64,000 nt of DNA from a virus: the IMG/VR virus record IMGVR_UViG_3300045988_159113; one strand, written 5' to 3'. This document shows, piece by piece, positions 12,583 through 48,315 of this stretch. The notes below the pieces were generated by a model. It searched no databases. It was not told the DNA's origin and worked only from the letters and a program-made list of their open reading frames with translations. Position numbers and translations under genes: made by a program. Numbering within the stretch: the first letter of the stretch is position 1; each line of letters starts with the position of its first letter.

Positions 12583-12822
12583 ATGAAAAACGTATACGAG
12601 ATTAAAGGTAAGGGGTTCATCGTTGGTGATTACCCTGCCTGTAACAGTGACAAATGGCTGATGATTGACGCCACAGCTTTCAATGATACCAACATTAGGA
12701 AAACGTTGGTATACGGAGAGGTTGCCGTGTATCTTGGCAGTGTTAAAGAGGTAATCGGAAGACACAAACGGCAGATGCACGAGATAAGGCGATACACAAA
12801 GGCCATATTGAGAAGATCATAG
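12583..12822 (+). CDS. hypothetical protein
   Basis: 79-aa ORF. Ends in TAG; the next in-frame non-TAG stop is 8 codons later. Confidence 0.5.
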   Translation: MKNVYEIKGKGFIVGDYPACNSDKWLMIDATAFNDTNIRKTLVYGEVAVYLGSVKEVIGRHKRQMHEIRRYTKAILRRS

Positions 12823-19610: not shown

Positions 19611-20617
19611 ATACATTAAAATACTGGTATTATTCCAAGAAGCAAAAGACATTTGCTTTTCTTGGATTCCCGTCTATTGATGATTCACATATCTCACGTG
19701 TACAATTTCCAATTACTATTTCTGATTCTTCTGGGCCTCACAGGTTCACTAACGAGAATGCACTTGTTTCTTATTGTGCTGAGCACAACCGACAAGTAGA
19801 GAAAGAGTACGAGGAAACATTCAAAATAGAACCTCCATATCTCTTACAGCCATATATTGATTACGATGGCAGTATGACGTATTATGTTTATTACAGAGAT
19901 CGTGAGCTTGTATTTGAAGATATGCATGTCATTCCTAAGCTTAACAAAGACATTTGGAATACTGTGGAAGATGCTCCTATTTACGAATTTCTTAGAAGGC
20001 ATCGCGGTCAACTGTTTGATTCTGCGATGATGACACAGTTTCACAAGTTCGCGCTGGCGAATGAAGTGTTCTCTCCATGTCATGCGACCTTTGGACGTGT
20101 TAGGTTTGCAGTGAAGCTAGGGGATCGCATAAGTATTGCAGAAGTTTGTGGACGTCTTAGCAGAGAAGACCCTTGCTTCTTGAACTTTGACAGCAAAGCA
20201 GAGTCAAACAAAGAGGTTTTCGAGTATTACAACATATCACGAGAATATCTTTCCAATCTCTTCCACATCGATACAACAGGAGATTGGCCGTACTCTGCAA
20301 AACAAACAGTGTATGACATCATCAATTACATAAACAGTACAAAATACGCGAACTGTTCGATACCTCAGGGAATAATTATTCAAGGCAATGTTGTCAAGTA
20401 TCAATCTGCAACATTTACCATAGAGCAAACTAAAAACTCAAAGTGGTATTTGTGCGGTGATATTAATAGCATCCTTGAAATGTTCGGGCTCGATAGCAAA
20501 GATAAGCTAAGAACATATGTGAATAGTATTCTCGGAGAGAAGAAAAGATCCGGAATCTTTCCTGAATGTGAAACAAGAGAGGAAATCAAGAAACTCATAA
20601 CATCAATAACAACATGA
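19607..20617 (+). CDS. tandem array member A7
   Basis: FKIEPPY; FHKFALANEVFSP; WPYSAKQTVYDIINYIN; EQTKNSKWYLCGD; RSGIFPECETREEIKKLITSI. Confidence 0.8.
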   Translation: MNTLKYWYYSKKQKTFAFLGFPSIDDSHISRVQFPITISDSSGPHRFTNENALVSYCAEHNRQVEKEYEETFKIEPPYLLQPYIDYDGSMTYYVYYRDRELVFEDMHVIPKLNKDIWNTVEDAPIYEFLRRHRGQLFDSAMMTQFHKFALANEVFSPCHATFGRVRFAVKLGDRISIAEVCGRLSREDPCFLNFDSKAESNKEVFEYYNISREYLSNLFHIDTTGDWPYSAKQTVYDIINYINSTKYANCSIPQGIIIQGNVVKYQSATFTIEQTKNSKWYLCGDINSILEMFGLDSKDKLRTYVNSILGEKKRSGIFPECETREEIKKLITSITT

Positions 20618-21624
20618 ACAATTTTGCATATTATGTATATAACGACATCAATAATTGTGTTTATAGTCTTGATCTTTTAAGTGAGACAGTAACCAAGTCG
20701 CTTGATTTTTGGATTAATACTCATACTGGATATCATTTTTTCCATGAAATATTTAATTCAAAACCCGAGCTTTTGAGATGTCTGAATGATATGAATCAGG
20801 CAACGGCTAATTCATACACTAGGACATTTTTGATAGATCCGCCGTATTACGTAAAGCAGTCATGGCAGCCAGTAACGAACATATTGTCAACTCGTATAAC
20901 AGCCTATAATATGACCTGTACATTCATTGCAGAAGGAGGAGGTCCTACTGGTTGTGAAAATGGCACGGAGTTCGAGAAGTTTCTTTTTATGAATAGAGAA
21001 AAGCGTTTCGATATTTATTATCTTGCACGCATTCATAAGTTTCTTATCAAATCTAAAATTGTTAGACCAGTTGTGAATGATGGGAGAGCCTTGCCTAGGT
21101 TAATTGACGATATACTGTTCAATGTTGCCCTTGGTACTGGTGATACAACAACAGCAAAGATTGATAAATTCAGTGGGTTTTTCCTCAACCTCAAAGGTTG
21201 TACTAATGACCAGATCTTCAAGACTTACGGAATAGAAAAAGCAAGTCTTCAAAGATTCCTGACTAAGCCAATGGTCGCTACTCAGTATTGGCCAGAGGAC
21301 ACGCTGGATTCATTGGCTAAGATTATCAACTATATCAACAACAACTTCTACGCTTTTTGCGGTCCGAAAACAACATTGTCAATTTCTGGTAATGAAATTA
21401 TGTTTTTCGGAACTTCTCTTTTCGTTTCACAATTGAAGAATGGGAAGTGGTACATCAAAGGTGATATGGAAAAGATATGTCAGCTGTTTGGTGTATCCAC
21501 TTGTGTAGAGCTTAGGCGTTTTGTTGATAGAACACTTGGGGAGAAAATACGCCATGGTATATTTCCCGAGTGTGATTCGAGAGATGAGATTTTTAAATTA
21601 CTAGATAAAGTGAAAAATGTCTGA
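20614..21624 (+). CDS. tandem array member A8
   Basis: FLIDPPY; IHKFLIKSKIVRP; YWPEDTLDSLAKIINYIN; SQLKNGKWYIKGD; RHGIFPECDSRDEIFKLLDKV. Confidence 0.8.
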   Translation: MNNFAYYVYNDINNCVYSLDLLSETVTKSLDFWINTHTGYHFFHEIFNSKPELLRCLNDMNQATANSYTRTFLIDPPYYVKQSWQPVTNILSTRITAYNMTCTFIAEGGGPTGCENGTEFEKFLFMNREKRFDIYYLARIHKFLIKSKIVRPVVNDGRALPRLIDDILFNVALGTGDTTTAKIDKFSGFFLNLKGCTNDQIFKTYGIEKASLQRFLTKPMVATQYWPEDTLDSLAKIINYINNNFYAFCGPKTTLSISGNEIMFFGTSLFVSQLKNGKWYIKGDMEKICQLFGVSTCVELRRFVDRTLGEKIRHGIFPECDSRDEIFKLLDKVKNV

Positions 21625-22600
21625 TTTAAAATATCTATATTATTCAATTAAACAAGGGAAGCTTCTAGCTCTTTATCTTGAAGATGGAAAGTTTGACCTT
21701 TACCCTGTAAGATTTCCGTTTGAATTTGAATCGAAAACTTTTTCTGGTCCAACTGGACTTGTTCTTTTTTGTGAAAGTTATAACAAAACAACAGCGAAGA
21801 AGTACAGGAAGCTTTACGGAATCAAACCACCATATGTTCTTCATACTTATATTGGTATCGGAGGAGAAGTTGTGTGTTTATTTACTTTTCACGGGAACAA
21901 ATTGTCTGTTACTGATGGATTGGACTTTCCAAAATTAAACACTACAATTTGGAATCAGGAAATTGATGCGCCACTTGATAACTTCTGCAAACAACACCAA
22001 GACAAAATGTTCAACTTGTCGGCAGTGATTGCATTTCACAGGTTCTTCATTGATAGCATGGTTATCGCACCGATAGGTCCCGGCTATTTTAATGCAAAAC
22101 TTGACGGGATTATTTATCATACTGAGATAAGAGCAGATTCAGATTTTTGGTATCTGTATTTTTCAAATTCTCTATCAAACGATCATATCTTTGAGTATTA
22201 TAATATACCAAAAGATGAAGTTTTGGAAGTGATAAACCAAAAGCATTGGGCTGGGGCTTGGCCAGAGTCAAGTAAAGAAAACCTGTTCAAACTTATTGAT
22301 TATATCAACAGAAGGTACTATGCAAATTTTGTATACGAGAGTTTTAAGATCACGGAAAATTCTATCGTGTCCAATTTTGGATGTTTGGATTTCAAGCAGA
22401 ACAAGAAGAGTGGCGGCTGGTTCCTATCCGGGAATATGAATGTCATTCTCGCTTTGTTCAAACTTGAATCTATAGGAGATTTGAAAGCTCGTGCGAATGA
22501 AATTCTCGGAAAACAAAAACGAAGTGGTATTTTCCCAGAATGTGATTCGAAAACAGAACTCATTGCACTCATAAAAACAATTAAAGATGAACGCAGATAA
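21617..22600 (+). CDS. tandem array member A9
   Basis: YGIKPPY; FHRFFIDSMVIAP; AWPESSKENLFKLIDYIN; KQNKKSGGWFLSGN; RSGIFPECDSKTELIALIKTI. Confidence 0.8.
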   Translation: MSDLKYLYYSIKQGKLLALYLEDGKFDLYPVRFPFEFESKTFSGPTGLVLFCESYNKTTAKKYRKLYGIKPPYVLHTYIGIGGEVVCLFTFHGNKLSVTDGLDFPKLNTTIWNQEIDAPLDNFCKQHQDKMFNLSAVIAFHRFFIDSMVIAPIGPGYFNAKLDGIIYHTEIRADSDFWYLYFSNSLSNDHIFEYYNIPKDEVLEVINQKHWAGAWPESSKENLFKLIDYINRRYYANFVYESFKITENSIVSNFGCLDFKQNKKSGGWFLSGNMNVILALFKLESIGDLKARANEILGKQKRSGIFPECDSKTELIALIKTIKDERR

Positions 22601-23564
22601 TGTATATTATCTTTTCTATGATCAGGTAAATCAAGAATTGATAAAGCTGGATCTGTTGGAACTTTCTGACTTACCAAACAAAACATGTTTCGTAACTTTC
22701 CCGTTTGTGCTCAATGGTAAATATGCGCACAATGGTCATGACTTGGTTAACTTAATTAACGAGTATAACGGAAGAGTCTATAACAGGTATCAGGATGAGT
22801 ACAAGATCAAACCGCCGTATTTCATAAAATGTGCATATAATCAAATCGGACGTGTTGATGTTTCCATATTCTACAAGAAAAAACATTTCTTGTTTTATGA
22901 TAATAAGATAAGCAATCCTGACGATTATCCTATTATTGATTCTTTCGTTTCCAAGCATAAGTCTCTACCATTCTGCGGTGTCTATATGAAGAAACTTCAT
23001 GAGTTCATTATGGATAACCAAATCGTGCGCCCAAATCCAAAACCAGGAGGCATTTATTTCAATGTTGTGATAAAGGGCAAGATTTACAAGGCTTATATTT
23101 GTAAAGAAAGTACCGATCATTGTTTTCTCTCTTTCCCATTAACAGGAAACAGATATGCCTTTGATTGTTATAATATAAGCGAGGAAGAAGTGTTGAATGT
23201 TCTTGGTATCAATGAGTGGCAAGGTGATTGGCCTGAAACACCAGAAAGAAAAGTGTATGTTCTGCTTGATTATATCAACGAGAACCGTATGGCTGGACCT
23301 GTTATCGACAGGTTAAAGATAGACGGCAATAAGATCATCACATCTTTTGCTGAGTTCGAGATAAAGCAAACGAAGACTGGCAAGTGGTATATTCGGGGAA
23401 ATATTGAGCAGATATGCTTGTTGTTTAAAGTTCCTAATATTACGGAACTCAAACATCTTGTCAACAAGATAATTGGCAACAAGATACGGCACGGTGTCTT
23501 TCCGGAATGTGATTCGAGAGAAGAGGTCACGAAACTTTTAAAATCAATTAGAGATGACAGATAA
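22587..23564 (+). CDS. tandem array member A10
   Basis: YKIKPPY; LHEFIMDNQIVRP; DWPETPERKVYVLLDYIN; KQTKTGKWYIRGN; RHGVFPECDSREEVTKLLKSI. Confidence 0.8.
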   Translation: MNADNVYYLFYDQVNQELIKLDLLELSDLPNKTCFVTFPFVLNGKYAHNGHDLVNLINEYNGRVYNRYQDEYKIKPPYFIKCAYNQIGRVDVSIFYKKKHFLFYDNKISNPDDYPIIDSFVSKHKSLPFCGVYMKKLHEFIMDNQIVRPNPKPGGIYFNVVIKGKIYKAYICKESTDHCFLSFPLTGNRYAFDCYNISEEEVLNVLGINEWQGDWPETPERKVYVLLDYINENRMAGPVIDRLKIDGNKIITSFAEFEIKQTKTGKWYIRGNIEQICLLFKVPNITELKHLVNKIIGNKIRHGVFPECDSREEVTKLLKSIRDDR

Positions 23565-24513
23565 GTTTTATTATCTTTTTTATGACCGTATAAACGGAAA
23601 GATAATCAGATTAGATTTGTTTAACGCTAACCTATCAATAGGCGAAGCCGTTTCTGTGATGTTTCCATGGGCAATTGATGGGAGGCTTACACATAATGAT
23701 GGCGAAGTAGTGATGGCGATCAACAAACACAACCAAAGAACATATAAACGATATATTGAGAAGTTTAAAATCAGACCTCCGTACTATATCGAAAATGTGC
23801 TCGGCGTTCGTGGTATGATCAATGCTATTGTTACTTACAAAAGTAGGTCACTTTTGCTTAAAGAGTACATGCTTGTCGACAAGTATAATGATGTCGCTCC
23901 ATTCTTTGCTAAATATGACTATGCGAAGTTTAACATCTGTTATATGATAGGGCTTCACAAGTATATCTTGGACAATCAGATCATACGTCCTAGCAAACAT
24001 AATAGCGGAATGTTTAGCGTCATGATACTTGGTAAAAGCTATATCGCGAATGTTGTAGTTTCACTAGATCATTGCTTCCTTAACATAGAAGGTATATCAA
24101 ACGGAGCAGTCTTCAATCATTATAAAATAGGTAAATCAAAAGTCCTTGAAGTACTCAGGATAGACAAATGGTACGGAGACTGGCCAGAGACTACCGAAGA
24201 CAAGGTGTACGAGTTAATCAACTATATCAACGAGTGCAGAAGCTCAAGCACTAATCCTGATAAAGTTGAGATAAGCGGAAATGAAATCATCACAGATTTT
24301 GCTAGACTTGAAATAAAGCAAAGCAAAAATGGTAAATGGTATATCAGTGGCTCGCTCGAGAATATATTGAAATTGTTTCATATTGACGACCAAGTCGAGT
24401 TGAAGCAAATGGTCAATAACCTTTTCGGATCTAAGCGACGCGCTGGTGTATTCCCTGAACTTGATTCTCGTGATGATGTTATTAAACTAATCAAAGTAAC
24501 GCAACATGAATAG
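23554..24513 (+). CDS. tandem array member A11
   Basis: FKIRPPY; LHKYILDNQIIRP; DWPETTEDKVYELINYIN; KQSKNGKWYISGS; RAGVFPELDSRDDVIKLIKV. Ends in TAG. Confidence 0.8.
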   Translation: MTDKFYYLFYDRINGKIIRLDLFNANLSIGEAVSVMFPWAIDGRLTHNDGEVVMAINKHNQRTYKRYIEKFKIRPPYYIENVLGVRGMINAIVTYKSRSLLLKEYMLVDKYNDVAPFFAKYDYAKFNICYMIGLHKYILDNQIIRPSKHNSGMFSVMILGKSYIANVVVSLDHCFLNIEGISNGAVFNHYKIGKSKVLEVLRIDKWYGDWPETTEDKVYELINYINECRSSSTNPDKVEISGNEIITDFARLEIKQSKNGKWYISGSLENILKLFHIDDQVELKQMVNNLFGSKRRAGVFPELDSRDDVIKLIKVTQHE

Positions 24514-25558
24514 AGAAACTGATTTCTTTTATCTATTTTACAATAGAACCAACAAATACTTGGTACAGTTGGATCTGTTGAGTAATTACTCGGAGAATAT
24601 ATCTTGTCGAACAGTAGATGGCGATAAGTACAAGCTGTATGGCAAGTATTTCAAAGCAGAGGATGAGTTTATCCAAGCTGTTAATGATTTCAATGTGTCG
24701 ATGGCTCAAAAGTATTTTAGCAAGTTCAAGATTCTTGCACCGTATAGATTAGAGTGTCAGCTCTTATTCTATATAGACGGAGGGGCAGACTACAACATAT
24801 ACATCTCAACACATGACAGATGCTATCGTTTCATTTATGGCAAGGAAACGCCTGCAAACTTTATAGAATTTGCACGTATCCGCAATATAGAGCCGGGGAC
24901 TTTCAATCTTCGCTATATGCTGAACCTACATACTGCACTTTTGAACTCTGCAGTGTTCAGGGCTGGATATGACAGGGGCAAGTTCTGTTATACTGTAAAC
25001 TGTGGAGAAAATTCTTTCTGTGCTCATATCGCGAAGTCAAGAGTAAGAGCTGGCTGTTATTTCCTAGCCTTTAGTCCTAATATTCCGAATGACTACGTCT
25101 TCGCGTATTACAACGTCAATAGGCAAAACATCAAGGATCTCTTGACTGTAGACTCCTGGACCGGAAAGTGGCCCGAGGATGTCGAGTCGACAATCTACGC
25201 GATCATGCAGTATATGAACAGAACATATATCGCAAATGCCAATTTTAGTTTTGTAATAGATGATGATGCTGTCATGTTCAACGGTACCAGATACCCATTC
25301 AAACAAGCAAAGAAGGGAGGCTGGTTCTTGTCTGGCAATATTGAGAAGATACTTCAGATGTTCGGTCTTGATAGTGTCGACTCATTACGTAAGACAGCGA
25401 ACCTATATCTTGGAGCAAAGAACAGACCGGGAGTTTTCCCAGAATGCGACACAAAAGAAGAGTTGATAAACTTGATTAAAATGTTCAAAGATGGAGAGCG
25501 AAAAATCAAAATTTCCGGTTCTTCTGTACTTCGATCCATGCAGCCGGATGATCTATAA
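24506..25558 (+). CDS. tandem array member A12 (C-terminal extension overlapping A13 by 68 nt)
   Basis: FKILAPY; LHTALLNSAVFRA; KWPEDVESTIYAIMQYMN; KQAKKGGWFLSGN; RPGVFPECDTKEELINLIKMF. An extra 20-odd residues follow the point where the other members stop. Confidence 0.8.
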   Translation: MNRETDFFYLFYNRTNKYLVQLDLLSNYSENISCRTVDGDKYKLYGKYFKAEDEFIQAVNDFNVSMAQKYFSKFKILAPYRLECQLLFYIDGGADYNIYISTHDRCYRFIYGKETPANFIEFARIRNIEPGTFNLRYMLNLHTALLNSAVFRAGYDRGKFCYTVNCGENSFCAHIAKSRVRAGCYFLAFSPNIPNDYVFAYYNVNRQNIKDLLTVDSWTGKWPEDVESTIYAIMQYMNRTYIANANFSFVIDDDAVMFNGTRYPFKQAKKGGWFLSGNIEKILQMFGLDSVDSLRKTANLYLGAKNRPGVFPECDTKEELINLIKMFKDGERKIKISGSSVLRSMQPDDL

Positions 25559-26510
25559 GTTCCCGCTTATCTGGACAACGGACATAGAACACTTGAAGTT
25601 CGAGATACTTATTGAAGAACTCGGATCAAGTACTGTATGGTTTCGTGGTATGAAATATGAGAACACGGAGGAACTCCTGCGTTTTATATCCAAAGAGAAC
25701 GAGAAGACGCGTAAAAAGTATAAAGAGAAATATGGCATTTTTCCGCCATATGTTATTACTCAATGTACTTTTAACACGACTTATTCAATTTGTATTAGAA
25801 CGCACAATTGCGAAAACTATGCTGTGTTTTTATTTGAAGATGGGGAAAAGCTTCCTGAGTGTATTGCAAATGGAGAAGTTCCTGTTTTTCGCAATGCAGA
25901 AATTAAAGCTAGCGATAGGTTTAATATTAAAACACTCATCAAGTTGCATAACTCCATCGTCTCAAATTATGTAGTACGTCCTGCGATTTATTTGGATTGT
26001 TGTGATAGGTATGTTGCAAAAATAAACGGCACGCTTTATGATGCTAGGATTGTTAGAGTTGCTGATAATACTTTCTATTTACAGTTTTTCACGATTCCCA
26101 GCATAAAACTTTTTAAGTATTATGACATAAAGTTTACAGAATACGAGCCTATCATATCTCATGACTTCCGTTTGATGGATGGCTATATCCCTGTGGATAA
26201 TAAAGAGCACATCCTAAAAATTCTTGACTTCATCAATAGTAAGCGCTGTGCTATGGAGTATGCATCGTTTACTATCAAAAGCGATACTATCCTAAGTAAT
26301 GGATGTATGTTCAAGATAGTCCAAACGCCAACTGGCAAGTGGTACATAAAGGGTAAGAGTGACGACTTCCCTAAGGTGTTCAAGTGCTCAAGTATGGAGG
26401 AGATCAGAGAGTTTGCGATCAAGCTATTCGGGCGAAGGATTACTGGAGTATTCCCAGAGTGCAACACCAGGGAAGAGTTGTTAACTTTAATCGAGAAGAT
26501 GAAGAAATGA
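25491..26510 (+). CDS. tandem array member A13
   Basis: YGIFPPY; LHNSIVSNYVVRP; IPVDNKEHILKILDFIN; VQTPTGKWYIKGK; ITGVFPECNTREELLTLIEKM. Confidence 0.8.
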   Translation: MESEKSKFPVLLYFDPCSRMIYKFPLIWTTDIEHLKFEILIEELGSSTVWFRGMKYENTEELLRFISKENEKTRKKYKEKYGIFPPYVITQCTFNTTYSICIRTHNCENYAVFLFEDGEKLPECIANGEVPVFRNAEIKASDRFNIKTLIKLHNSIVSNYVVRPAIYLDCCDRYVAKINGTLYDARIVRVADNTFYLQFFTIPSIKLFKYYDIKFTEYEPIISHDFRLMDGYIPVDNKEHILKILDFINSKRCAMEYASFTIKSDTILSNGCMFKIVQTPTGKWYIKGKSDDFPKVFKCSSMEEIREFAIKLFGRRITGVFPECNTREELLTLIEKMKK

Positions 26511-27532
26511 TAATCCAACTTTTAGAAGAACCGACTTATCTATACTTTGACCAGATGGTGATGAAAGTCTACCAGCTGCCAATAATGCATACGATACAGT
26601 TGTCGGCTGTTGAAGTTTACAACGTACGACATCCTCAAGGCATCATGTCAATGCGCGAACGAGAAGTTGACCTATGGTTTCGAGATGCGCATTACAACAC
26701 GATCGGTGATCTCTTGAAGTATATAAACAAGAGAAACGAGAGAATGTTCAAATATTACGTTGAGAAATTCGGAATTTCTCCTGCTTACTTTTTGGACCAA
26801 GAAGCTGATGCGGATAATGTAGTCATTACCACTATTGTAACACATCTCGATTCTTACCGTTTTGAATGTGATGGTCGGATAGATTATGAAATAATAGAGA
26901 AGACTATTCCCGTTTTCAGTTATGCAGACATCAAAGAAGATGACCGTTTTGGCGCAGAAGTTCTGGTGAAGATGCACAACTCCATCATCAAAAACCAGGT
27001 GATAAAACCCACCATATACAAGAACGTTTACACCGTAAGAATGGGCGATTTGTTTGCAAAAGCAAAAATCGATACGATGGATATAGGTAGGGTGCCTGGC
27101 TATCATTTGCATTTTCTATCTTATCATGATAGGATTGTTTTTGATTATTACCACATACGATATTCTGACTTTGCTTATGTGATCCCTGATACCGAATTGA
27201 GTAACGGGATACCTGTTGGCCCAGAAGAAGATATCAGAAAGCTCATCAACTATATCAATATGACATATTGCGTTTGTGAGGGCTCAAAGTTTAGTGTGAA
27301 TGATAATATTATCATCTGCAATAAGCACAAGCTTGAAATTACACAAACGCGAAACGGCAAATGGTATATCAAGGGTGATGTTTTACTCGCTTTTGGGTTG
27401 GATAGTATGGAGGCAATCAGAAAGGCTGCGTCTGATCTCTTCGGTAAAAAGAGGATGAACGGAGTATTCCCGGAATGCGATTCCAAGGAAGACCTCCTGC
27501 GACTCGTTGAAGTTCTTAGAAAATACAGGTGA
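26507..27532 (+). CDS. tandem array member A14 (last)
   Basis: Start set at the ATG at 26507 (ATGA overlap; MIIQLLEEPTYLYFDQ matches the N-termini of A10-A13). FGISPAY; MHNSIIKNQVIKP; TQTRNGKWYIKGD; MNGVFPECDSKEDLLRLVEVL. Confidence 0.8.
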   Translation: MIIQLLEEPTYLYFDQMVMKVYQLPIMHTIQLSAVEVYNVRHPQGIMSMREREVDLWFRDAHYNTIGDLLKYINKRNERMFKYYVEKFGISPAYFLDQEADADNVVITTIVTHLDSYRFECDGRIDYEIIEKTIPVFSYADIKEDDRFGAEVLVKMHNSIIKNQVIKPTIYKNVYTVRMGDLFAKAKIDTMDIGRVPGYHLHFLSYHDRIVFDYYHIRYSDFAYVIPDTELSNGIPVGPEEDIRKLINYINMTYCVCEGSKFSVNDNIIICNKHKLEITQTRNGKWYIKGDVLLAFGLDSMEAIRKAASDLFGKKRMNGVFPECDSKEDLLRLVEVLRKYR

Positions 27533-28893: not shown

Positions 28894-29504
28894 AAGTATA
28901 TCGAATACAACAGAAGAATTTTAATTCCATAACGCAGTCAACACTTAGTGTAGAAGATGGGACGAAGTTTCAATTTATACCAACAGGAAAAGAGGACATG
29001 TACAATGTCGCCTATATCACTGATGGCAGTAAAGAGAACGTCATAAGGTGTAAAAGATTAGTGAACTCTTTTCAGTTTCTACTTCCTTATGATAAGCTCC
29101 TTATCATTCTCAAGGACTTCATGGGCAAGCCGTTCGAGGAATCGACGGAGATAAAGATCAATGATTTCTATCTCTCTTGTTTCCCAAAGGGGCATCCAGA
29201 AAGACCGCTTGAGTTCTATCATGTGCTTGACTTTACAGGAACCGCGTTCAAGGTAATACGTGTAAGGATAACGGATCCATTAAACAAGATATATAATCCT
29301 CGGATTGAGTACACAACAATCGCACCGCTTACTTTGTTCAGAAGCCAGACGGGAATAGCTAGAGGTCCAGAGACTGCGCTGTTTACTGACTTCATGAAAA
29401 AAGAAGATTTCGAGCGTTATATGGATATCATAACTCTTACACTGAAAGGAGACACCAATCGTTTAATGACAAATGAAATACTTTACAATTCAGGAGCTGA
29501 CTAA
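28890..29504 (+). CDS. hypothetical protein
   Basis: 204-aa ORF with ATGA coupling. Confidence 0.6.
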   Translation: MKVYRIQQKNFNSITQSTLSVEDGTKFQFIPTGKEDMYNVAYITDGSKENVIRCKRLVNSFQFLLPYDKLLIILKDFMGKPFEESTEIKINDFYLSCFPKGHPERPLEFYHVLDFTGTAFKVIRVRITDPLNKIYNPRIEYTTIAPLTLFRSQTGIARGPETALFTDFMKKEDFERYMDIITLTLKGDTNRLMTNEILYNSGAD

Positions 29505-29928
29505 TTCATAGACAGCTAAAGCAAAGGGTCTTGATAATACTCCGGACCCACAACAGGAGCACAATCTCCGCAGGCTTATCGAGGAGCTGCTCGATCCATT
29601 ACGTGAAGCTTGGGGTAAACCGATAAAGGTAACCTCCGGGTTCCGTGGTTTCGCACTTAATAAATGCGTTAAAGGATCAAAAAGTTCGGCTCATTGTATA
29701 GGAGCAGCTGCGGATCTTGTACCTGTAGATGGGAAGATGCCACAATTCAAAAGATTCGTGAGAGACTGGTTGACTGAAAACAATATCAAGTTTGACCAGT
29801 ATATAGATGAGAGAAGTGGAAACAGTGAGTGGGTACATCTGGGACTTATCAACCAGTCAGGAAGACAGAGGAGACAATTTCTGATGTATCGCAACAAGAC
29901 GTATGTATCATTGAAGGATATATGTTAA
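29473..29928 (+). CDS. peptidase M15 (D-Ala-D-Ala carboxypeptidase / endolysin-type) containing one in-frame TAG at 29509..29511
   Basis: MKYFTIQELTNS-TAG-TAKAKGLDNTPD...LREAWGKPIKVTSGFRGFALNKCVKGSKSSAHCIGAAADLVP...EWVHLGL. The N-terminal F...EL..S.TA...(I/L)DN.P motif spans the TAG. Zn ligands H..6..D and H lie downstream. There is no ATG between the TAG and 29737. Confidence 0.75.
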
Positions 29929-34201: not shown

Positions 34202-34228
34202 CTTTTAGAAAAGAAAGAGAGGTCTATT

Positions 34229-35593
34229 ATTTGTGGCATTTTTGGATACATAAAGTCTAAACCAGAACCGTTTGACTTTATGGAGTTCTGCACTTTAGGA
34301 GTGCATAACGATACAAGAGGAAAAGATTCTGTCGGTATTTATATCGATGGACAAACTGAGTATTATTGTAAGGGCAAGAACAATAGCCTGTTCTCGGAGT
34401 TTATCTCCAAGAGCAGGCTATTGCAGTCTGTAGAGGTTGCACAAGTTGCATATGGTCATGACCGTGCAGCTTCCATTGGCACCGTATCTATTGAGACTGC
34501 ACAGCCCGTAGTGTTAAAAGAAGATGACAAGATCACATATGTGCTTATGCACAATGGCACCATCTATAATTATGAGGATCTAGCCAAAAAGTATATTCCA
34601 GATGTGGATATCAAGGGGATGACTGATTCCCAGGTTATGGCGCGCATATTCTACAAAGCAGGATATGATGCACTCAATGAATATATCGGTGGTGCCGTGT
34701 TTGCCATTATCGATTACCGCGGAGAAAAACCAAAGTATCTATTCTGGCAAGGGCACAGTAAGAACACGCAGTATTCACAAACCAGCCAGCAGGAAGAACG
34801 CCCGCTGTTCTTCTTGAAGAGTAAAGGCGAGATGATGTTTTCATCTCTTGATACATATCTTGACGCATTCAGGAGACAATCAACAAAGTTGGTGCCGACT
34901 CCAAACTTGCTGATAGAGTATGATCCAGAGACTGAGGAGTTTATCTCACTTGAAGAGTATGACAGGAAGAATTGCTTTCAGACTAAGCCATACGTCGCAA
35001 CCACTACCACATATTACGGAAACAACAACTATGGAAGTAGTACGTGTAATTATAGCCATAGCACTAATCGCGGCACTTCTTGCTATTCAAGCGGTTATGT
35101 AAACACAGACACGCACACCGGACAATGTCGCAGAGGCGCAAGTCTTTTGCATGGCAGCTATAGCATCAGCACCTATGGCAACATATCGGAAAGCGCCAAC
35201 CAGAACGGATCGAATTATATGACCATGTGGTTCTTCAATGGTATACTCATGAAGAACGAGCAAGCATTCATATATCTCACAAAGTTCTGTAAGGAGTGCG
35301 GCATTAGTATTGATGAGTGTTTCAAATGGTATGATGACTTGGTTTATTATCTCTCGCCTTACCCTTATCGCGAGAAGAAGATCGGAGGAATTCCCTTCAT
35401 GTTCAAAACCAATGATCCCGCAGGCGGTGAAGAGTACACAGGAGATGTACTTTATCCGTTTTCTACATACTCCAAGCGATATGTTAATGGTTCCTATGTA
35501 TCAACAAGGACATCAACATTTATCGAATCGCTTGAAGCGTATAACAAAACAAAAGACGATAAGTTAGATATAGACGTTTTAATGAAAGTATAA
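34229..35593 (+). CDS. Ntn-type (class II) glutamine amidotransferase domain protein with a C-terminal extension; apparent ATT start
   Basis: (ATT)-CGIFGYIKS..., RGKDSVGI, MHNGTIYNYEDL, MTDSQVMARIF. The only codons between the upstream in-frame TAA (34199..34201) and Cys are ctt tta gaa aag aaa gag agg tct att att. Confidence 0.7.
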   Translation: MCGIFGYIKSKPEPFDFMEFCTLGVHNDTRGKDSVGIYIDGQTEYYCKGKNNSLFSEFISKSRLLQSVEVAQVAYGHDRAASIGTVSIETAQPVVLKEDDKITYVLMHNGTIYNYEDLAKKYIPDVDIKGMTDSQVMARIFYKAGYDALNEYIGGAVFAIIDYRGEKPKYLFWQGHSKNTQYSQTSQQEERPLFFLKSKGEMMFSSLDTYLDAFRRQSTKLVPTPNLLIEYDPETEEFISLEEYDRKNCFQTKPYVATTTTYYGNNNYGSSTCNYSHSTNRGTSCYSSGYVNTDTHTGQCRRGASLLHGSYSISTYGNISESANQNGSNYMTMWFFNGILMKNEQAFIYLTKFCKECGISIDECFKWYDDLVYYLSPYPYREKKIGGIPFMFKTNDPAGGEEYTGDVLYPFSTYSKRYVNGSYVSTRTSTFIESLEAYNKTKDDKLDIDVLMKV

Positions 35594-36811
35594 ATGGCAG
35601 AAATTATTTCAGATTTTAAGAATGGCGCTCCTGTTATTGCAAGGGGAACAGAGTTTGTAGACAACAAAGTTGCACTTTTACACGACAAGAAGAGGTCAAC
35701 AAAAATGTTGGTAGAGGTCTCAGAAAAGACTCTCCCGTATATAGCATTTGCTAATACGATGGGTGCATATGTGATCAAGTCGCAGTATACCGAGGATGAG
35801 CTTTTCTATCTTATGAACACTATGGGAACCGGCAGTTTCCCGTATACATTCGAGAGGCGATACGAAGCAATGGACAGCTTCAACCTCTTCAATGGTCATG
35901 AGGTGATAGAGAAGGATATCGAATTTGAACTGGCTAAGTTCATGCCTTACACTTTTGGTATTGAGTACGAAACGTCTATGGGATATATTCCTCAGGATGT
36001 TTGTTTCAGAAATGGTCTCATCCCTTTGAGGGATGGGTCCATCTCTGGCTTGGAGTATTCAACAACCGTGATGCAGGGAAACGATGGACTCAATCTTGTC
36101 TATCAGCAGCTTGAGGCTCTGCGTAAGTTTACCTATTTCAACAAGGAGTGTTCCCTTCATGTTCATATGGGAGGCTATCCTATTGATCCTATGGCGATCT
36201 ATGCCTTATATAGAGTTTGCTATTTCTTGCAGGAAGAGATGGCAGAGTTCTTGCCCGACTGGACTTTCGAGACTTCCAAGTATAAGAAGAGCGGGAAGGA
36301 CTATTGCCATAAGCTCGCAAACTACAAGACATTTGGCGAGCTCTATGAGAATATCGCACAGCAGAAGTTCATGGGAAGCCTGGAGCAGCCGCATCCAAGA
36401 GATGAGGAGAGAAGCCATAAGTGGGATTGCACAAGCAGATACACATGCGTCAACTTGTTGAACCTCATGTGTTATGACAAGTGCAAGACTGCGGAGTTCC
36501 GATTCCTGCGTCCTACCTATAACTTCAAGAAGATCTATTACTGGCTCGCAATCTTCAATGCCATACTCAAGTATAGCGAAGACCTCTTCGCTAAGAGTGA
36601 CAAGACAGAGAAGGGTATCGAGCAGTTGATCTATGACGACAACACCTCCATCTATCTAATTGCCAGCTCGGTTTATCCCAAACCTCTGGCAGATAAGATC
36701 GAGGATTTCGTCAACAAGCTGTATGTAGCAGTAGGTAATCAGAGAACAAACGGTGATCTCTATGGCAAAGATACGGCTATTGAGGATGCCATTATCGGGA
36801 CCAGGTTATGA
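35594..36811 (+). CDS. Amidoligase_2-family (glutamine synthetase-like) amidoligase
   Basis: FGIEYETSMGYIP...RDGSISGLEYST...CSLHVHMGGYP...AEFRFLRPT. Confidence 0.65.
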   Translation: MAEIISDFKNGAPVIARGTEFVDNKVALLHDKKRSTKMLVEVSEKTLPYIAFANTMGAYVIKSQYTEDELFYLMNTMGTGSFPYTFERRYEAMDSFNLFNGHEVIEKDIEFELAKFMPYTFGIEYETSMGYIPQDVCFRNGLIPLRDGSISGLEYSTTVMQGNDGLNLVYQQLEALRKFTYFNKECSLHVHMGGYPIDPMAIYALYRVCYFLQEEMAEFLPDWTFETSKYKKSGKDYCHKLANYKTFGELYENIAQQKFMGSLEQPHPRDEERSHKWDCTSRYTCVNLLNLMCYDKCKTAEFRFLRPTYNFKKIYYWLAIFNAILKYSEDLFAKSDKTEKGIEQLIYDDNTSIYLIASSVYPKPLADKIEDFVNKLYVAVGNQRTNGDLYGKDTAIEDAIIGTRL

Positions 36812-45178: not shown

Positions 45179-45203
45179 GGGAGGGGTTCGCCCCTCCCTT
45201 TTT
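45179..45203 (+). terminator. rho-independent terminator
   Basis: GGGAGGGG-ttcg-CCCCTCCC followed by a T5 run. Confidence 0.8.
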
Positions 45204-45232
45204 AATATTATCATTGTCAAAACTATGATATT

Positions 45233-46246
45233 ATGCCACTTGACTTTGAAATAGAACCAATCCTGAACAAGGACTTCTTGCTTGGACATTATACCGAGGA
45301 AACGTATATGTCCCACTATACGGGCCTACCTATAAAGAAGGGCCTGTTCCTTTCTCCGCTTCGTGAGGATAGGAAACCGTCAGTCGCTTTTTACAGAACG
45401 AGTAATGGGCAACTTATCTATAAGGATTTCGGAGACAATACACACGTTAGCTTTATTGGGCTTGTGATGAAGATGTATTCGCTGAGTTATTACCAGGCGA
45501 TACGAAAGATTGCCGAAGACTTCGGACTTGTAAAAAGAAAGAGTCAGGAAGCAATAGCAACAAAACCGATTAAGGTAATCAATACAAGATTTGAAGAATC
45601 GAAGCCTTCAATTATAAATGTTGAAGTGCAGGATTTCACAGATCGGGATATCGCGTGGTGGAGACAATACAACATAAGTGTTGAACTGCTGCAAAAGTTC
45701 CATGTCTATTCTTGCAAGTATGTCTTCCTAAACTCTAGAATCTTCGCTGAATGTACGGATAAAAACCCGATCTATGGGTATTATTTCGGAAAGAAAAACG
45801 GAGAGGAGAAATGGAAGATATACATGCCAAAGAGAACGGAATGGAAATGGATTTGCAACACAGGAAACGAAACGATACAAGGATATCGTGAGCTTCCACC
45901 TCGCGGAAATGTTTGTGTCATTACGAAATCTTTAAAAGATGTATTGTGTCTTAGGTCGTTCGGCATCTATGCAGTCGCCCCTAACAGTGAACACTTATTC
46001 GTATCTGATGAGATACTGGAGAATCTAAAGCGTAGATTCAAGACTATCGTAGTCTTATATGATAATGACCACACCGGCATGAGGCGAACCGTAGAGATAC
46101 GGCAACAACATCCCGAGCTGTTTTACGCGCTGATTCCTAAATGTTCAGGCTGTAAAGATCTATCTGATTATGTGAAAACAAACGGAGTAGAAAAAGCTAA
46201 AAGTTTAATCAATGAGTACGTCAAATACATCAGGAGTTCCAAATAG
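45233..46246 (+). CDS. TOPRIM-domain DNA primase
   Basis: SPLREDRKPSVAFY (degenerate zinc-finger-like segment). TOPRIM: VCVITKSLKDVLCL...IVVLYDNDHTGMR. Ends in TAG. Confidence 0.7.
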   Translation: MPLDFEIEPILNKDFLLGHYTEETYMSHYTGLPIKKGLFLSPLREDRKPSVAFYRTSNGQLIYKDFGDNTHVSFIGLVMKMYSLSYYQAIRKIAEDFGLVKRKSQEAIATKPIKVINTRFEESKPSIINVEVQDFTDRDIAWWRQYNISVELLQKFHVYSCKYVFLNSRIFAECTDKNPIYGYYFGKKNGEEKWKIYMPKRTEWKWICNTGNETIQGYRELPPRGNVCVITKSLKDVLCLRSFGIYAVAPNSEHLFVSDEILENLKRRFKTIVVLYDNDHTGMRRTVEIRQQHPELFYALIPKCSGCKDLSDYVKTNGVEKAKSLINEYVKYIRSSK

Positions 46247-46502
46247 TTTCTTTGGTCATACAATCAGAGCGACGCAAAAACAGCTTGAGCTATTGCTTGG
46301 ATTTGATCATAATGCAAGCAAAGACGGGAAAAGTCGGTGCATCTGGCATAAGACAATCGACGATATGCCTTTTTGTGTGTATGATTGGAAGATGGAAGCA
46401 GAGCCAGACGAAACTATAGACTGGCACATTGGAGCGAGAAACGAAGAAGAAAGTAAAAAGATACAACGAATTTTGAATAATGTAAAAACTAATGAATTAT
46501 GA
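46212..46502 (+). CDS. hypothetical protein
   Basis: 96-aa ORF. Overlaps the primase 3' end by 35 nt. There is no later ATG. Confidence 0.5.
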   Translation: MSTSNTSGVPNSFFGHTIRATQKQLELLLGFDHNASKDGKSRCIWHKTIDDMPFCVYDWKMEAEPDETIDWHIGARNEEESKKIQRILNNVKTNEL

Positions 46503-47089
46503 GACCACCTTTTTTTAAACCATCATGTAAAGACACATCGTGCAAGGTAACATTCCCCGATGGCCACACATAGGAATTTGAGACAATCGAACAGGCAGCA
46601 GAAGCAACTGGTGTATCACTCGCAGCATTGAAGAAGCGCTGCAAGTATCCAGGGAAGGAAACGAAAGACGGGATACTCTGCGAGTATCTCAACCCTGCTA
46701 TGCTCCGCAAGGTTCGTAATAAAGCGAACAGAAGCAAAGGCTGCTCTTTCGAGCGCGATATTATCAATAGGCTCAAAGAGGAAGGATTTGAGGAATGTGT
46801 ATCCTCTCGTCAGTACTCTCGAGCTATGGATAAGGCAAAGATTGATGTATGCGATCCAAGCGGTAAACTTCCGGTATATATTCAAGCGAAGTATACGACA
46901 AGCACGCCACAGTATACAAAGATCAAGAATGCCTGCCCGTTTGATGATAAGCCTTTCGTGACTATCTGGAAGCAGGCAACTAGAGATGGGAGTAACAGTC
47001 CCGGAACGATTGTGATGTTAGACTACGAGTTTTTTATTCAACTTTTAAAAAGTTTTGTCAAGGATGATTGCAATAATAGCAGTATATGA
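46499..47089 (+). CDS. HTH + PD-(D/E)xK (Holliday-junction-resolvase-like) nuclease containing one in-frame TAG at 46571..46573
   Basis: The ATG at 46499 forms an ATGA overlap with the upstream stop. MRPPFFKPSCKDTSCKVTFPDGHT-TAG-EFETIEQAAEATGVSLAALKKRC... then GCSFERDIINRLKEEGF...DVCDPSGKLPVYIQAKY. The track ORF (46628..) starts inside the HTH. Confidence 0.65.
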
Positions 47090-47303
47090 TAACACTAACG
47101 GTCACATATACGTACAAAAGTTAGGACAGTTTGACCACGTAGACAATGAGAAAGCACAGGAAGCCGTGCGAGATTTCCTTGTTGATAACTACTGGGCACG
47201 AGAGTTTGCACAAAAGGCAAAAATGCATAGCTACGACTATGATGAACTAATTGAAGACGCAGCATGCGATGGAGTTATAATTGGTGGAATACAATACCTT
47301 TAA
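47064..47303 (+). CDS. hypothetical protein
   Basis: ORF 47055..47303. ATG at 47064. Confidence 0.5.
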   Translation: MIAIIAVYDNTNGHIYVQKLGQFDHVDNEKAQEAVRDFLVDNYWAREFAQKAKMHSYDYDELIEDAACDGVIIGGIQYL

Positions 47304-47304
47304 T

Positions 47305-47694
47305 ATGAGAATAACGGCTATGATACTTGTCATTTTTACTGTTATTGGTGTGTTGATTTTTGCTTTGTTAAATTTCAGAACTTCCGAGTTTGAAACATTC
47401 GTCCCGTACGAATACAGGCTTTGTGCTGATGAGGCATATAACATAGACAAGATCGATGTCGCTAATGATTACATGCAATCAACGGTCAAGATTTTCAAAG
47501 ATAATATAACTATTACGGATTACTACAGCAATAAATCCGAGTATGGTGCCATTATCAGAAACGGGAAAATCAAAGAAGACCGAGCAGTATTTGAAGATTG
47601 CGATTTCCCCGATCTTCTTATGATTAAAAATGGCAACGGGGACATTGAGTGTTTAGTAAATGATAAACCATTCATGTACTTTTATTGTAAATGA
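47305..47694 (+). CDS. membrane-anchored hypothetical protein
   Basis: The ATG at 47305 lies 2 nt after the upstream stop. N-terminal transmembrane segment AMILVIFTVIGVLIFALL. Confidence 0.55.
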   Translation: MRITAMILVIFTVIGVLIFALLNFRTSEFETFVPYEYRLCADEAYNIDKIDVANDYMQSTVKIFKDNITITDYYSNKSEYGAIIRNGKIKEDRAVFEDCDFPDLLMIKNGNGDIECLVNDKPFMYFYCK

Positions 47695-48179
47695 TAAAGA
47701 TAGGGCTAGATTTAGATGATACCATAAACTATTGGTACGACGTGTATGTCAAGAGGTTTGGCATACCAAAATCTGATAGTGAGATTACGCATAATGTCTG
47801 GAATGTGCTAAGGCATGACCAGGAATTTTGGGAGACCCTGCCAGTCAAGAACAGGCCGGTAGGGTTTGTTCCGGAATTGTATTGTACATCTCGAGTAAAC
47901 AACAAGAGATGGACGAGAAACTGGTTGAAGAAAAACGATTTTCCGAATAAGCCGATATATCAGCGTTTTGGTTTTGGGTTATCCAAAGCGCCATTGATAA
48001 AGGGAAGGGTTGACGTCTTTATTGACGACAGCCCTTTTAATGTTTTTGACCTAAACAAAAAAGGAATCCCTTGTTTGATGTTGACAACCCCAGCGAATGC
48101 TCACATACGTTTTGATTATAGAATAGAAAGTTTAAACTATGAAGAAATCAAAATCCAATATGAAAAAATTATTCAATAA
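47691..48179 (+). CDS. HAD-superfamily 5'(3')-deoxyribonucleotidase-like protein
   Basis: IGLDLDDTI (DxDxT motif I) and VDVFIDDSPFN (motif IV). Confidence 0.55.
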   Translation: MIKIGLDLDDTINYWYDVYVKRFGIPKSDSEITHNVWNVLRHDQEFWETLPVKNRPVGFVPELYCTSRVNNKRWTRNWLKKNDFPNKPIYQRFGFGLSKAPLIKGRVDVFIDDSPFNVFDLNKKGIPCLMLTTPANAHIRFDYRIESLNYEEIKIQYEKIIQ

Positions 48180-48315
48180 ATTGAAAAAGGGTTTCTCTTT
48201 CAATTTGTTTTTTCTCATTACTTGGACCATACTGATTTGTGTAGTTGTGCCGCTCTGTGGTAGATGTGAGAACACACAAGAAGACTATGGCGAAGATTTA
48301 ACGATTGACTTTTAA
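48160..48315 (+). CDS. possible small membrane protein (51 aa)
   Basis: MKKLFNKLKKGFSFNLFFLITWTILICVVVPLC... Overlaps the upstream gene by 20 nt. Confidence 0.3.
   Translation: MKKLFNKLKKGFSFNLFFLITWTILICVVVPLCGRCENTQEDYGEDLTIDF

What the first reader, a model, noticed from the sequence alone, without database searches (positions are those of the whole stretch)
46499..47089. Second independent in-frame TAG, in an HTH-PDDEXK nuclease gene
Seen in the sequence:
- An ATG at 46499 overlaps the upstream TGA (ATGA), the coupling used throughout this window.
- It opens MRPPFFKPSCKDTSCKVTFPDGHT, then TAG (46571..46573), then EFETIEQAAEATGVSLAALKKRCKYPG...
- The frame continues into a nuclease core (GCSFERDIINRLKEEGF...DVCDPSGKLPVYIQAKY).
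- The TAG sits just before an F.(T/S)..(Q/E)AA...G(V/I)S HTH-like segment.
- The first downstream ATG (46628, used by the ORF track) would start inside that helix-turn-helix.

Inference: two separate genes broken only by TAG, never by TAA or TGA, both with properly coupled upstream starts, argue for TAG read-through or recoding rather than random decay.
Basis: partly seen in the sequence, partly recalled or inferred. Interest (0 to 1): 0.75.

Follow-up and report, generated by a model that had tools for sequence, protein, structure and literature searches.

The report
Amber codon read as glutamine
The "broken" nuclease gene is intact: this roughly 180-kb crAss-like gut phage reads the stop codon TAG as glutamine using its own suppressor tRNA, a known phage trick, and the single TAG near the start of the gene probably keeps the nuclease from being made until late in infection.

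Summary
ATG 46499 overlaps the upstream TGA, TAG sits at 46571-46573, and the frame runs to TGA 47089. One detail is wrong: 46628 is TTG, not ATG.

The TAG lies inside a confidently folded N-terminal beta-hairpin plus HTH domain (I-HmuI/NUMOD-like), which is fused to an Hjc-like PD-(D/E)XK nuclease core.

- **Conservation:** the TAG is present in all 9 related contigs, including one only 70% identical in protein. The codons in front of it evolve as coding sequence.
- **Genome context:** sister genomes (94-96% nt identity) carry giant late genes starting about 5.5 kb past the window end. These hold 77 in-frame TAG and no TAA or TGA.
- **Amino acid:** TAG swaps with CAA or CAG in 20 of 24 polymorphic sites, which points to glutamine.
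- **Suppressor:** a tRNA(CUA) gene lies about 18 kb upstream of the window start in a sister contig.

This is genetic code 15 (TAG = Gln) in a crAss-like, probably Zeta-type, phage, which is already known.

The new detail is that homologous nuclease genes in at least seven other lineages each carry exactly one TAG. It usually sits at codons 4-6, once at codon 99, and the genes lie in blocks otherwise compatible with the standard code. This suggests a selected translational gate. The M15 lysin gene has a similar TAG at codon 13.

The parts
46499..47089 (+). Complete nuclease gene: 196 sense codons with TAG read as Gln, terminated by TGA. The start ATG overlaps the upstream TGA.
   Evidence: The homologue P0001 (97% identical, 196 aa) was called with Q at the TAG codon.
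46571..46573 (+). In-frame TAG at codon 25, decoded as glutamine.
   Evidence: Conserved in 9 of 9 related contigs. The homologue L038 has CAA (Gln) in this column. The codon lies in strand E24-27 of the AlphaFold model, in a block with pLDDT 92-95.
46538..46687 (+). N-terminal DNA-binding domain (beta-hairpin plus helix-turn-helix, I-HmuI/NUMOD-like), residues about 14-63. It spans the TAG.
   Evidence: AF2 secondary structure. Foldseek hit to 1u3e (I-HmuI): 55 columns, rmsd 2.2, probability 1.00. Pfam PF22083 matches residues 18-40 at E = 0.054, below threshold. Alignment A1.
46694..47077 (+). PD-(D/E)XK (Hjc-like) nuclease core, residues about 66-193. Motif residues are E85 (46751-46753), D116 (46844-46846), Q129 (46883-46885) and K131 (46889-46891).
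   Evidence: PHROG_244 'RusA-like Holliday junction resolvase' at E = 4.9e-5. Pfam Hjc at E = 0.14. Foldseek hits to Hjc structures 2eo0, 1gef and 2wcw at probability 0.5-0.75. E85 is invariant, and the (I/V)D and IQxK motifs are conserved in the full-length homologues of A1.
46212..46502 (+). Upstream 96-aa gene whose TGA overlaps the nuclease start codon (translational coupling).
45233..46246 (+). crAss-type DnaG primase. It ends in TAG (46244-46246), with a backup TGA 14 codons further on at 46286-46288.
   Evidence: tblastn gives 33-35% identity to primases of crAss-like phages, where the neighbouring gene is annotated as a Holliday junction resolvase. The code-15 gene call in L002 runs through to the TGA.
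29473..29928 (+). Peptidase_M15_3 (lysin-type) gene, the only other window gene with an internal TAG (codon 13, 29509-29511).
   Evidence: The Pfam PF08291 match (E = 9.2e-16) covers residues 2-99 and so spans the TAG. The TAG is conserved in 5 clade contigs. Standard-code homologues read MKYFTIQEL..S[D/A/N]TA.

Best explanation
The window is about one third of the genome of a roughly 180-197 kb crAss-like (probably Zeta-type) phage that uses genetic code 15.

A phage-encoded tRNA with anticodon CUA inserts glutamine at UAG. The nuclease gene 46499-47089 is therefore one intact cistron. It encodes a 196-residue protein with a NUMOD-like HTH DNA-binding domain fused to an Hjc-like PD-(D/E)XK endonuclease, most likely a junction or branch-resolving enzyme.

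Shown here:
- the TAG is conserved and lies inside a folded, conserved domain;
- the lineage's late genes are packed with TAG;
- TAG interchanges with CAA and CAG;
- a tRNA(CUA) gene exists in a sister genome.

Inferred (about 50%): the gene sits in the early replication block, which is otherwise compatible with the standard code. Its single TAG would act as a translational gate. Before the suppressor tRNA accumulates, ribosomes stop after 24 codons (after 3-5 codons in most relatives). Afterwards the full nuclease is made. This would restrict a potentially toxic DNA-cutting enzyme, and likewise the M15 lysin, to late infection or to low levels.
For: **Conservation of the TAG**
- It is present at the same codon in 9 of 9 related contigs from different samples, including L003 at 70% protein identity.
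- The codons upstream of it show a coding-type substitution pattern.

**Position inside a real domain**
- The TAG lies in a beta-strand of a high-confidence domain (mean pLDDT 88.8).
- That domain matches the I-HmuI DNA-binding domain.
- Homologues have the domain uninterrupted at this column: K mostly, CAA-encoded Q in L038.

**Genome-wide recoding in the lineage**
- In sister contigs (94-96% nt identity to the window), a minus-strand block starts about 5.5 kb beyond the window end.
- Its genes of 1845, 1166 and 1581 codons contain 37, 18 and 22 in-frame TAG and no TAA or TGA.

**TAG means glutamine**
- Between two clade genomes, 20 of 24 TAG/sense swaps are to CAA or CAG.
- In late genes CAG is depleted (29, against 113 CAA), with TAG (77) making up the deficit. 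In the window the counts are CAG 292 and CAA 262.

**Suppressor tRNA**
- A tRNA(CUA) lies at L081:16746-16822. It is intergenic, folds as a cloverleaf, is called by ARAGORN, and scores 47 bits against Rfam tRNA (gathering score 29).
- It sits about 18 kb upstream of the position equivalent to window base 1, in contig IMGVR_UViG_3300045988_155098.

**Evidence for a gate**
- Nuclease homologues in other lineages each have exactly one TAG:
  - codon 4 in MT836281 and L036/37;
  - codon 5 in L039-41, L042-44 and L038;
  - codon 6 in MT835492 and L045;
  - codon 99 in L080.
- In the 20-kb early region of L039 (30 genes, 5,652 codons), the nuclease is the only gene with a TAG that is not at the C-terminal end.
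- Late-gene TAGs turn over quickly: 14 of 77 differ at 5.4% nt divergence.

**Stop-codon usage and literature**
- TAG is a rare terminator in the window: 4 of 82 genes.
- TAG = Gln in late genes of crAss-like phages: PMC7886860.
- Proteomic validation: PMC9523058.
- Recoding as a timer for late, lysis and homing-endonuclease genes: bioRxiv 10.1101/2021.08.26.457843.
Against: - The tRNA(CUA) and the TAG-rich late genes were seen in sister contigs about 95% identical to the window, not in the window itself. The window has no tRNA.
- The amino acid charged onto the tRNA is inferred from codon swaps, not measured. The tRNA is not obviously a tRNA-Gln derivative.
- The gate idea is untested.
  - One homologue (L079) has no TAG.
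  - Retention of the TAG between the window and L003 alone is only weakly surprising: a rough estimate gives about 0.3 by chance from late-gene turnover.
  - The codon-4-to-6 TAGs may be a single inherited event rather than independent ones.
- Nuclease function and expression timing rest on homology and on literature about other phages.
Confidence: 0.85

Rival explanations
1. Neutral spill-over. TAG is simply a third glutamine codon in this phage, and its presence in the nuclease and M15 genes is drift with no regulatory meaning.
For: - TAG, CAA and CAG interchange freely in late genes.
- The residue at the TAG column is variable in homologues: K, Q, T, I, H for the nuclease and D, A, N for M15.
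- One homologue has no TAG at all.
Against: - Within the early blocks, TAG is almost absent inside genes. The window has 2 in about 19,700 codons, and L039 has 1 non-terminal TAG in 5,652 codons.
- Despite that, the same gene family carries one TAG in at least 8 lineages, at four different positions, mostly within the first 6 codons.
- Late-gene TAGs turn over at about 18% per 5% divergence. The nuclease TAG nevertheless persists across lineages that are only 35-45% identical in protein.
Confidence: 0.3
2. Two cistrons. A 24-codon leader ORF terminates at TAG, and the nuclease is initiated internally (TTG 46628 or ATG 46700), giving a protein without an intact N-terminal domain.
For: - Under the standard code the ORF finder starts at TTG 46628.
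- The gene caller for L003 chose an internal ATG.
- Early in infection, before suppression, this is the only product possible.
Against: - The internal starts are not conserved: TTG in the window and a different ATG in L003.
- In relatives with TAG at codons 4-6 there is usually no ATG, GTG or TTG between the TAG and the conserved strand.
- A start at 46628 would cut the HTH in half.
- The sequence upstream of the TAG is homologous to the first beta-strand of the domain in all full-length homologues and evolves as coding sequence.
Confidence: 0.05
3. Pseudogene or error. A recent nonsense mutation, or an assembly or sequencing error, created the TAG.
For: Under the standard code the gene looks truncated.
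Against: - The same TAG is in 9 other contigs from at least three sequencing projects, including a relative about 66% identical in nucleotides.
- There are no other stops or frameshifts in the gene.
- Purifying selection acts on both sides of the TAG.
Confidence: 0.01
4. TAG is decoded as pyrrolysine, or is read through at low efficiency by host near-cognate tRNAs, without a true reassignment.
For: - ARAGORN labels the CUA tRNA 'tRNA-Pyl' by convention.
- The phage also carries a tRNA-Gln(UUG) next to the window start, and near-cognate Gln tRNAs can misread UAG (general knowledge).
Against: - The tRNA has a canonical T-loop (GGTTCGAATCC), a GG in the D-loop and two bases between the acceptor and D stems, unlike tRNA-Pyl (tRNA-Pyl features from general knowledge).
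- No pyl genes were seen.
- TAG swaps specifically with Gln codons.
- Late genes with 18-37 TAG each cannot be expressed by leaky read-through.
Confidence: 0.02

Closest known systems
Genetic code 15 (TAG = Gln) in crAss-like phages, especially the Zeta group (Yutin et al. 2021, PMC7886860; Peters et al. 2022, PMC9523058; PMC12386605)
   Same: - Genome size of about 175-197 kb.
- A replication block with DnaG primase, SNF2 and DnaB helicases, and NrdD.
- An opposite-strand block of giant late genes dense in TAG.
- A phage tRNA(CUA).
- A group I intron in a tRNA gene of a relative.
- Early genes readable in the standard code.
   Different: No difference in kind. Membership of the Zeta group itself was not tested with TerL, MCP or portal trees. 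The window is the lightly recoded early part, with only two internal TAGs.
Recoding as a timer of late or lytic genes (Borges et al., bioRxiv 10.1101/2021.08.26.457843)
   Same: An amidase/lysin-type gene and a nuclease carry recoded stops, while the surrounding replication genes do not. That paper explicitly proposes that in-frame stops keep an intron homing endonuclease, located in an early gene, silent until late.
   Different: Here the gated gene is a resident Hjc-like nuclease next to the primase. The gate is a single TAG. It recurs at the extreme 5' end of the ORF across many lineages. I did not find this pattern described in the papers I searched.
Archaeal Hjc and phage PD-(D/E)XK Holliday junction resolvases
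   Same: A core fold with an E...D...(E/Q)xK motif. The position next to the primase matches crAss-like genomes, where that gene is annotated as a Holliday junction resolvase.
   Different: It has an extra N-terminal NUMOD-like HTH domain. It has Q instead of E or D in the third motif position. The sequence and structure matches are weak (Pfam E = 0.14; Foldseek E > 0.1). Activity is untested.

Membership tests
Phage stop-codon reassignment, code 15 (TAG = Gln) | In-frame TAG (and only TAG) inside conserved genes, at positions where homologues have sense codons | tested here: met
   Nuclease. M15. Late genes have 77 TAG and 0 TAA or TGA.
Phage stop-codon reassignment, code 15 (TAG = Gln) | Coding density restored by reading TAG as sense | tested here: met
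   - The window itself rises only from 0.931 to 0.941.
- Sister-contig regions beyond the window rise from 0.85 to 0.93, with giant ORFs appearing only under code 15.
- The relative MT835492 rises from 0.57 to 0.93.
Phage stop-codon reassignment, code 15 (TAG = Gln) | Suppressor tRNA with anticodon CUA encoded by the phage | tested here: met
   Found at L081:16746-16822, by ARAGORN and by Rfam (47 bits). It is in a sister contig about 95% identical to the window, not in the window itself.
Phage stop-codon reassignment, code 15 (TAG = Gln) | The amino acid inserted is glutamine | tested here: met
   Indirect evidence only. 20 of 24 TAG/sense polymorphisms are to CAA or CAG. CAG is depleted in late genes. 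L038 has CAA at the homologous codon. Proteomic proof is not possible with these tools.
Crassvirales (Zeta-like) | Signature structural genes (TerL, portal, MCP) and a giant RNAP with a DxDxD motif | not tested
   - Only the replication block was compared. The primase is 33-35% identical to crAss primases, and SNF2 and DnaB helicases are present.
- The giant late proteins gave no PHROG hit.
- The structural genes lie in a part of the genome that was not retrieved.
Hjc-like PD-(D/E)XK Holliday junction resolvase | PD-(D/E)XK fold with catalytic E, D and (E/Q)xK residues | tested here: inconclusive
   The motif E85, D116, Q129-x-K131 is conserved in A1. PHROG_244 matches at E = 4.9e-5. However, Pfam Hjc is only E = 0.14, and the Foldseek Hjc hits are at probability 0.5-0.75 with E > 0.1.
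Hjc-like PD-(D/E)XK Holliday junction resolvase | Structure-specific cleavage of four-way junctions | not testable with these tools
   Requires a biochemical assay.
NUMOD / I-HmuI-like DNA-binding domain | Beta-hairpin followed by a helix-turn-helix that matches the I-HmuI C-terminal domain | tested here: met
   Foldseek 1u3e_M at probability 1.00, rmsd 2.2 over 55 columns. The sequence match to PF22083 is below threshold (E = 0.054).
Pyrrolysine decoding of UAG | tRNA-Pyl architecture and pylS/pylBCD genes | tested here: not met
   The tRNA has a canonical T-loop and D-loop. TAG swaps with Gln codons. No pyl genes were noticed in any retrieved locus, though there was no systematic search.

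The most novel reading that the evidence does not exclude
The single TAG is not just a third Gln codon. It is a selectively maintained one-codon translational gate. This family of primase-adjacent nucleases has acquired or kept it repeatedly: at codons 4-6 in most lineages, codon 25/28 in the window clade, and codon 99 in another. The gene sits inside an early gene block and is probably co-transcribed with the primase, yet under this reading it is translated only once the phage's tRNA(CUA) has switched the cell to code 15. The M15 lysin (TAG at codon 13) would be gated in the same way.
Probability: 0.5. Interest if true: 0.6.

Novelty: new member of a known kind. Interest (0 to 1): 0.4.

Why it matters
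For annotation, this window and its relatives must be translated with code 15, or with mixed codes. Otherwise the nuclease, the M15 lysin and all late genes are miscalled as fragments or pseudogenes.

For biology, the case gives a clean and minimal test of the hypothesis that phage stop-codon recoding works as a timer. Two enzymes that are dangerous if made early, a DNA-cutting nuclease and a cell-wall peptidase, sit in a block otherwise compatible with the standard code. Each is blocked by exactly one TAG near its start. The nuclease TAG recurs across lineages only 35-45% identical in protein. A single-codon gate like this is easy to test with reporters, with and without the tRNA(CUA).

Tried and rejected
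- **GenBank DNA search:** blastn (distant mode) of 45200-48200 against GenBank phages gave no match.
- **Source contig:** exact-protein look-ups of two window proteins found no source contig.
- **tRNA in the window:** none by ARAGORN or Rfam, even at relaxed E-values.
- **Walking along the sister IMG/VR contigs:** this used all 8 viral scans. Four of them went on walking or tRNA-cluster searches that gave no suppressor, two on the nuclease and M15 homologue searches, and the last two led to the locus holding the tRNA(CUA).
- **Rfam filter miss:** a whole-locus Rfam scan missed that tRNA. A focused 171-nt scan scored it at 47 bits.
- **MT835492.1:** no convincing suppressor tRNA was found. This relative is about 43% identical in the nuclease protein and heavily recoded. 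Low-threshold ARAGORN hits fall inside giant ORFs and were discarded.
- **Inferring the amino acid from distant orthologues:** alignments at 25-28% identity were too noisy, with Q enriched only about 4-fold. This was replaced by a within-clade comparison.
- **Similarity of the tRNA(CUA) to the phage's tRNA-Gln(UUG):** low. Only the acceptor stem resembles a tRNA-Gln from a distant relative, so this is not used as evidence.
- **Slippery-site frameshifting:** considered for the A-rich 'AAA AAA TAG' starts and rejected, because the reading frame does not change across the TAG.

Full report
**1. Observation**

- ATG 46499-46501 overlaps the TGA (46500-46502) of the upstream 96-codon ORF.
- Twenty-four sense codons (MRPPFFKPSCKDTSCKVTFPDGHT) are followed by TAG at 46571-46573.
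- The same frame continues without further stops to TGA 47087-47089.
- One detail is wrong. 46628 is TTG (Leu44), not ATG. The first in-frame ATG after the TAG is Met68 at 46700.

**2. The TAG is not an error and the upstream segment is coding**

A protein search with the read-through product found P0001, which is 97% identical and 196 aa long, with Q at the TAG position. It also found P0002 at 70% identity. The DNA behind both carries TAG at the same codon.
- P0001's Q therefore comes from a code-15 gene call.
- Six further IMG/VR contigs also carry the TAG.
- These contigs are 94-96% identical to the window in nucleotides.

Two patterns show that the upstream segment evolves as coding sequence.
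- Within the clade, every variable site in the first 75 nt is a third codon position.
- Against L003, the 13 codons before the TAG show four synonymous and three conservative changes, while TAG is retained.

**3. The TAG sits inside a real domain**

An AlphaFold model built on 19 homologues has mean pLDDT 88.8. Residue 25 is in the second strand of a beta-hairpin that precedes a helix-turn-helix.

Foldseek matches two parts of the model.
- The N-terminal domain matches the DNA-binding domain of I-HmuI (1u3e; probability 1.00, rmsd 2.2 Å over 55 columns).
- The C-terminal part matches archaeal Hjc resolvases, more weakly.

Sequence profiles agree but are weak.

| Profile | Region matched | E-value |
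|---|---|---|
| PF22083 (I-HmuI_NUMOD-like) | residues 18-40 | 0.054 |
| Pfam Hjc | residues 84-141 | 0.14 |
| PHROG_244 (RusA-like HJ resolvase) | residues 74-183 | 4.9e-5 |

The residues E85, D116 and Q129-x-K131 form the PD-(D/E)XK-type motif conserved in the family.

An exhaustive search found 212 homologues.
- The closer ones contain the N-terminal domain, with consensus LNTSVxATFKxGxxKxxxSIEEAS.
- More distant ones have only the core, starting near residue 70-77.
- None begins at the position of 46628.
- At the window's TAG column the homologues mostly have K. One (L038) has a CAA-encoded Q.

**4. The genome is TAG-recoded**

The window itself barely changes when TAG is read as sense (ORF-based coding density 0.931 to 0.941). 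It has only two internal TAGs: this one, and codon 13 of a Peptidase_M15_3 gene (29473-29928). That TAG is also conserved in the clade and also lies inside the conserved domain.

Of 82 plus-strand genes, 42 end in TGA, 36 in TAA and only 4 in TAG.

In sister contigs the picture changes about 5.5 kb past the window end.
- A convergent block of giant genes begins there, with 1845, 1166 and 1581 codons.
- These genes contain 37, 18 and 22 in-frame TAG.
- They contain no TAA or TGA.

MT835492.1 is a more distant GenBank relative from human faeces (about 43% identity in the nuclease protein). It shows the same two-part layout.
- Its coding density rises from 0.57 to 0.93 under code 15.
- About 600 in-frame TAGs are confined to 64-121 kb.

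**5. Which amino acid, and how**

Two clade genomes that differ by 5.4% in nucleotides show 24 codon positions where TAG in one is a sense codon in the other.
- 11 are CAA.
- 9 are CAG.
- 3 are GAG.
- 1 is TCT.

Codon counts point the same way.

| Gene set | TAG | CAG | CAA |
|---|---|---|---|
| Late giant genes (L030) | 77 | 29 | 113 |
| Window plus-strand genes | 2 | 292 | 262 |

A tRNA with anticodon CUA lies at L081:16746-16822 in contig IMGVR_UViG_3300045988_155098.
- It is in an intergenic gap and folds as a cloverleaf with a canonical T-loop.
- ARAGORN calls it, and it scores 47 bits against the Rfam tRNA model, whose gathering score is 29.
- It is about 18 kb upstream of the position equivalent to window base 1.
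- Its features do not fit tRNA-Pyl.

Just upstream of the window start, relatives also carry tRNA-Lys(UUU), tRNA-Leu(UAA) and tRNA-Gln(UUG).

**6. What it is**

The following features fit the crAss-like phages, and best the Zeta group. That group is described as 145-192 kb, with TAG = Gln or TGA = Trp reassigned in late genes, suppressor tRNAs and many introns (PMC7886860; PMC12386605).
- A primase 33-35% identical to crAss primases, where the neighbouring gene is annotated as a Holliday junction resolvase.
- SNF2 and DnaB helicases.
- An NrdD-type ribonucleotide reductase gene (Pfam ATP-cone, NRDD and Gly_radical on the homologous gene in sister contigs).
- Contig sizes of 175-197 kb.
- A group I intron in a tRNA gene of a relative.

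TAG = Gln has been validated by metaproteomics in crAss-like phages (PMC9523058). Group membership was not tested with structural-gene phylogeny.

**7. The part that may be new**

Every further nuclease homologue with the N-terminal domain whose DNA I could inspect has exactly one TAG, with a single exception.

| Locus or record | Start of ORF | TAG codon |
|---|---|---|
| MT836281, L036/37 | ATG AAA AAR TAG | 4 |
| L039-41 | MAKK-TAG | 5 |
| L042-44 | MSKK-TAG | 5 |
| L038 | MAKK-TAG (the gene caller had started at the GTG just after it) | 5 |
| MT835492 | MSKSN-TAG | 6 |
| L045 | MAKKF-TAG | 6 |
| L080 | TAG further into the gene | 99 |
| L079 | no TAG; none of its 19 neighbouring genes uses TAG either | none |

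- In L039, the nuclease is the only one of 30 early-region genes (5,652 codons) with a TAG that is not at the C-terminal end.
- The ATG in front of the TAG overlaps the end of the primase gene in these lineages, as it overlaps the upstream gene in the window.
- There is usually no alternative start codon between the TAG and the first conserved strand.
- Late-gene TAGs turn over quickly: 14 of 77 differ at 5% divergence. Persistence of one early TAG in this gene, across lineages only 35-45% identical in protein and at four distinct positions, therefore suggests selection for the TAG itself.

The most economical reading is a translational gate. This agrees with the timer hypothesis of Borges et al. 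(bioRxiv 10.1101/2021.08.26.457843).
- That paper reports preferential recoding of lysis genes.
- It proposes the same logic for an intron homing endonuclease inside an early gene.

The gate is an inference. The lineages are not independent, and no timing data exist.

**8. Verdict**

The phenomenon is a known kind: code 15 in a crAss-like phage. The instance is a new member of that kind. The conserved single-TAG gate on a resolvase-like nuclease, and on the M15 lysin, is a modestly novel and testable detail.

Noticed in passing
window 15027-27532: About a dozen tandem paralogous genes of roughly 300-385 aa sharing a C-terminal 'GVFPE.DS.EE.IKL'-like motif. One member had no Pfam hit. Two of the genes end in TAG.
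   Followed up: partly
window 34202-36811: Two adjacent genes, one with glutamine amidotransferase domains (GATase_6/7) and one Amidoligase_2. They may form a nucleotide or DNA modification pair.
   Followed up: no
L033 about 1020-1810 (relative; just upstream of the window start): tRNA-Leu(UAA) is split in its anticodon loop by a group-I-intron-like element (Rfam RF00028, 37 bits, below the gathering score). The element carries an HNH endonuclease ORF that itself has in-frame TAGs. The intron-less allele is at L035:1724-1806.
   Followed up: partly
window stops at 12820, 15915, 24511, 46244: Four genes end in TAG under the standard code, each with a backup TAA or TGA within 16 sense codons downstream (2, 4, 13 and 16). 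Once TAG is suppressed they would gain short C-terminal extensions.
   Followed up: partly
L019:6493-6572: A distant relative carries a tRNA with anticodon UUA (ochre-suppressor-like) next to tRNA-Gln(UUG). This resembles the TTG-to-TTA suppressor pre-emergence described in PMC7886860.
   Followed up: no
L001/L002 14568-15728: A DUF723 (homing-endonuclease-like) gene downstream of the methyltransferase carries a TAG at codon 12. It may be another nuclease in the early block that is gated by TAG.
   Followed up: no
MT835492.1 (L025, L027-L029): About 600 in-frame TAGs lie in the 64-121 kb late block, yet neither ARAGORN nor Rfam finds a convincing tRNA(CUA) in the 121.6-kb record. The six tRNAs detected are Asn, Asp, Thr, Met, Tyr and Ala.
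   Followed up: partly
L081:16746-16822: Technical point. A whole-locus Rfam scan with permissive E-values missed the tRNA(CUA), which scores 47 bits when only 171 nt are searched. The speed filters can hide real tRNAs.
   Followed up: yes
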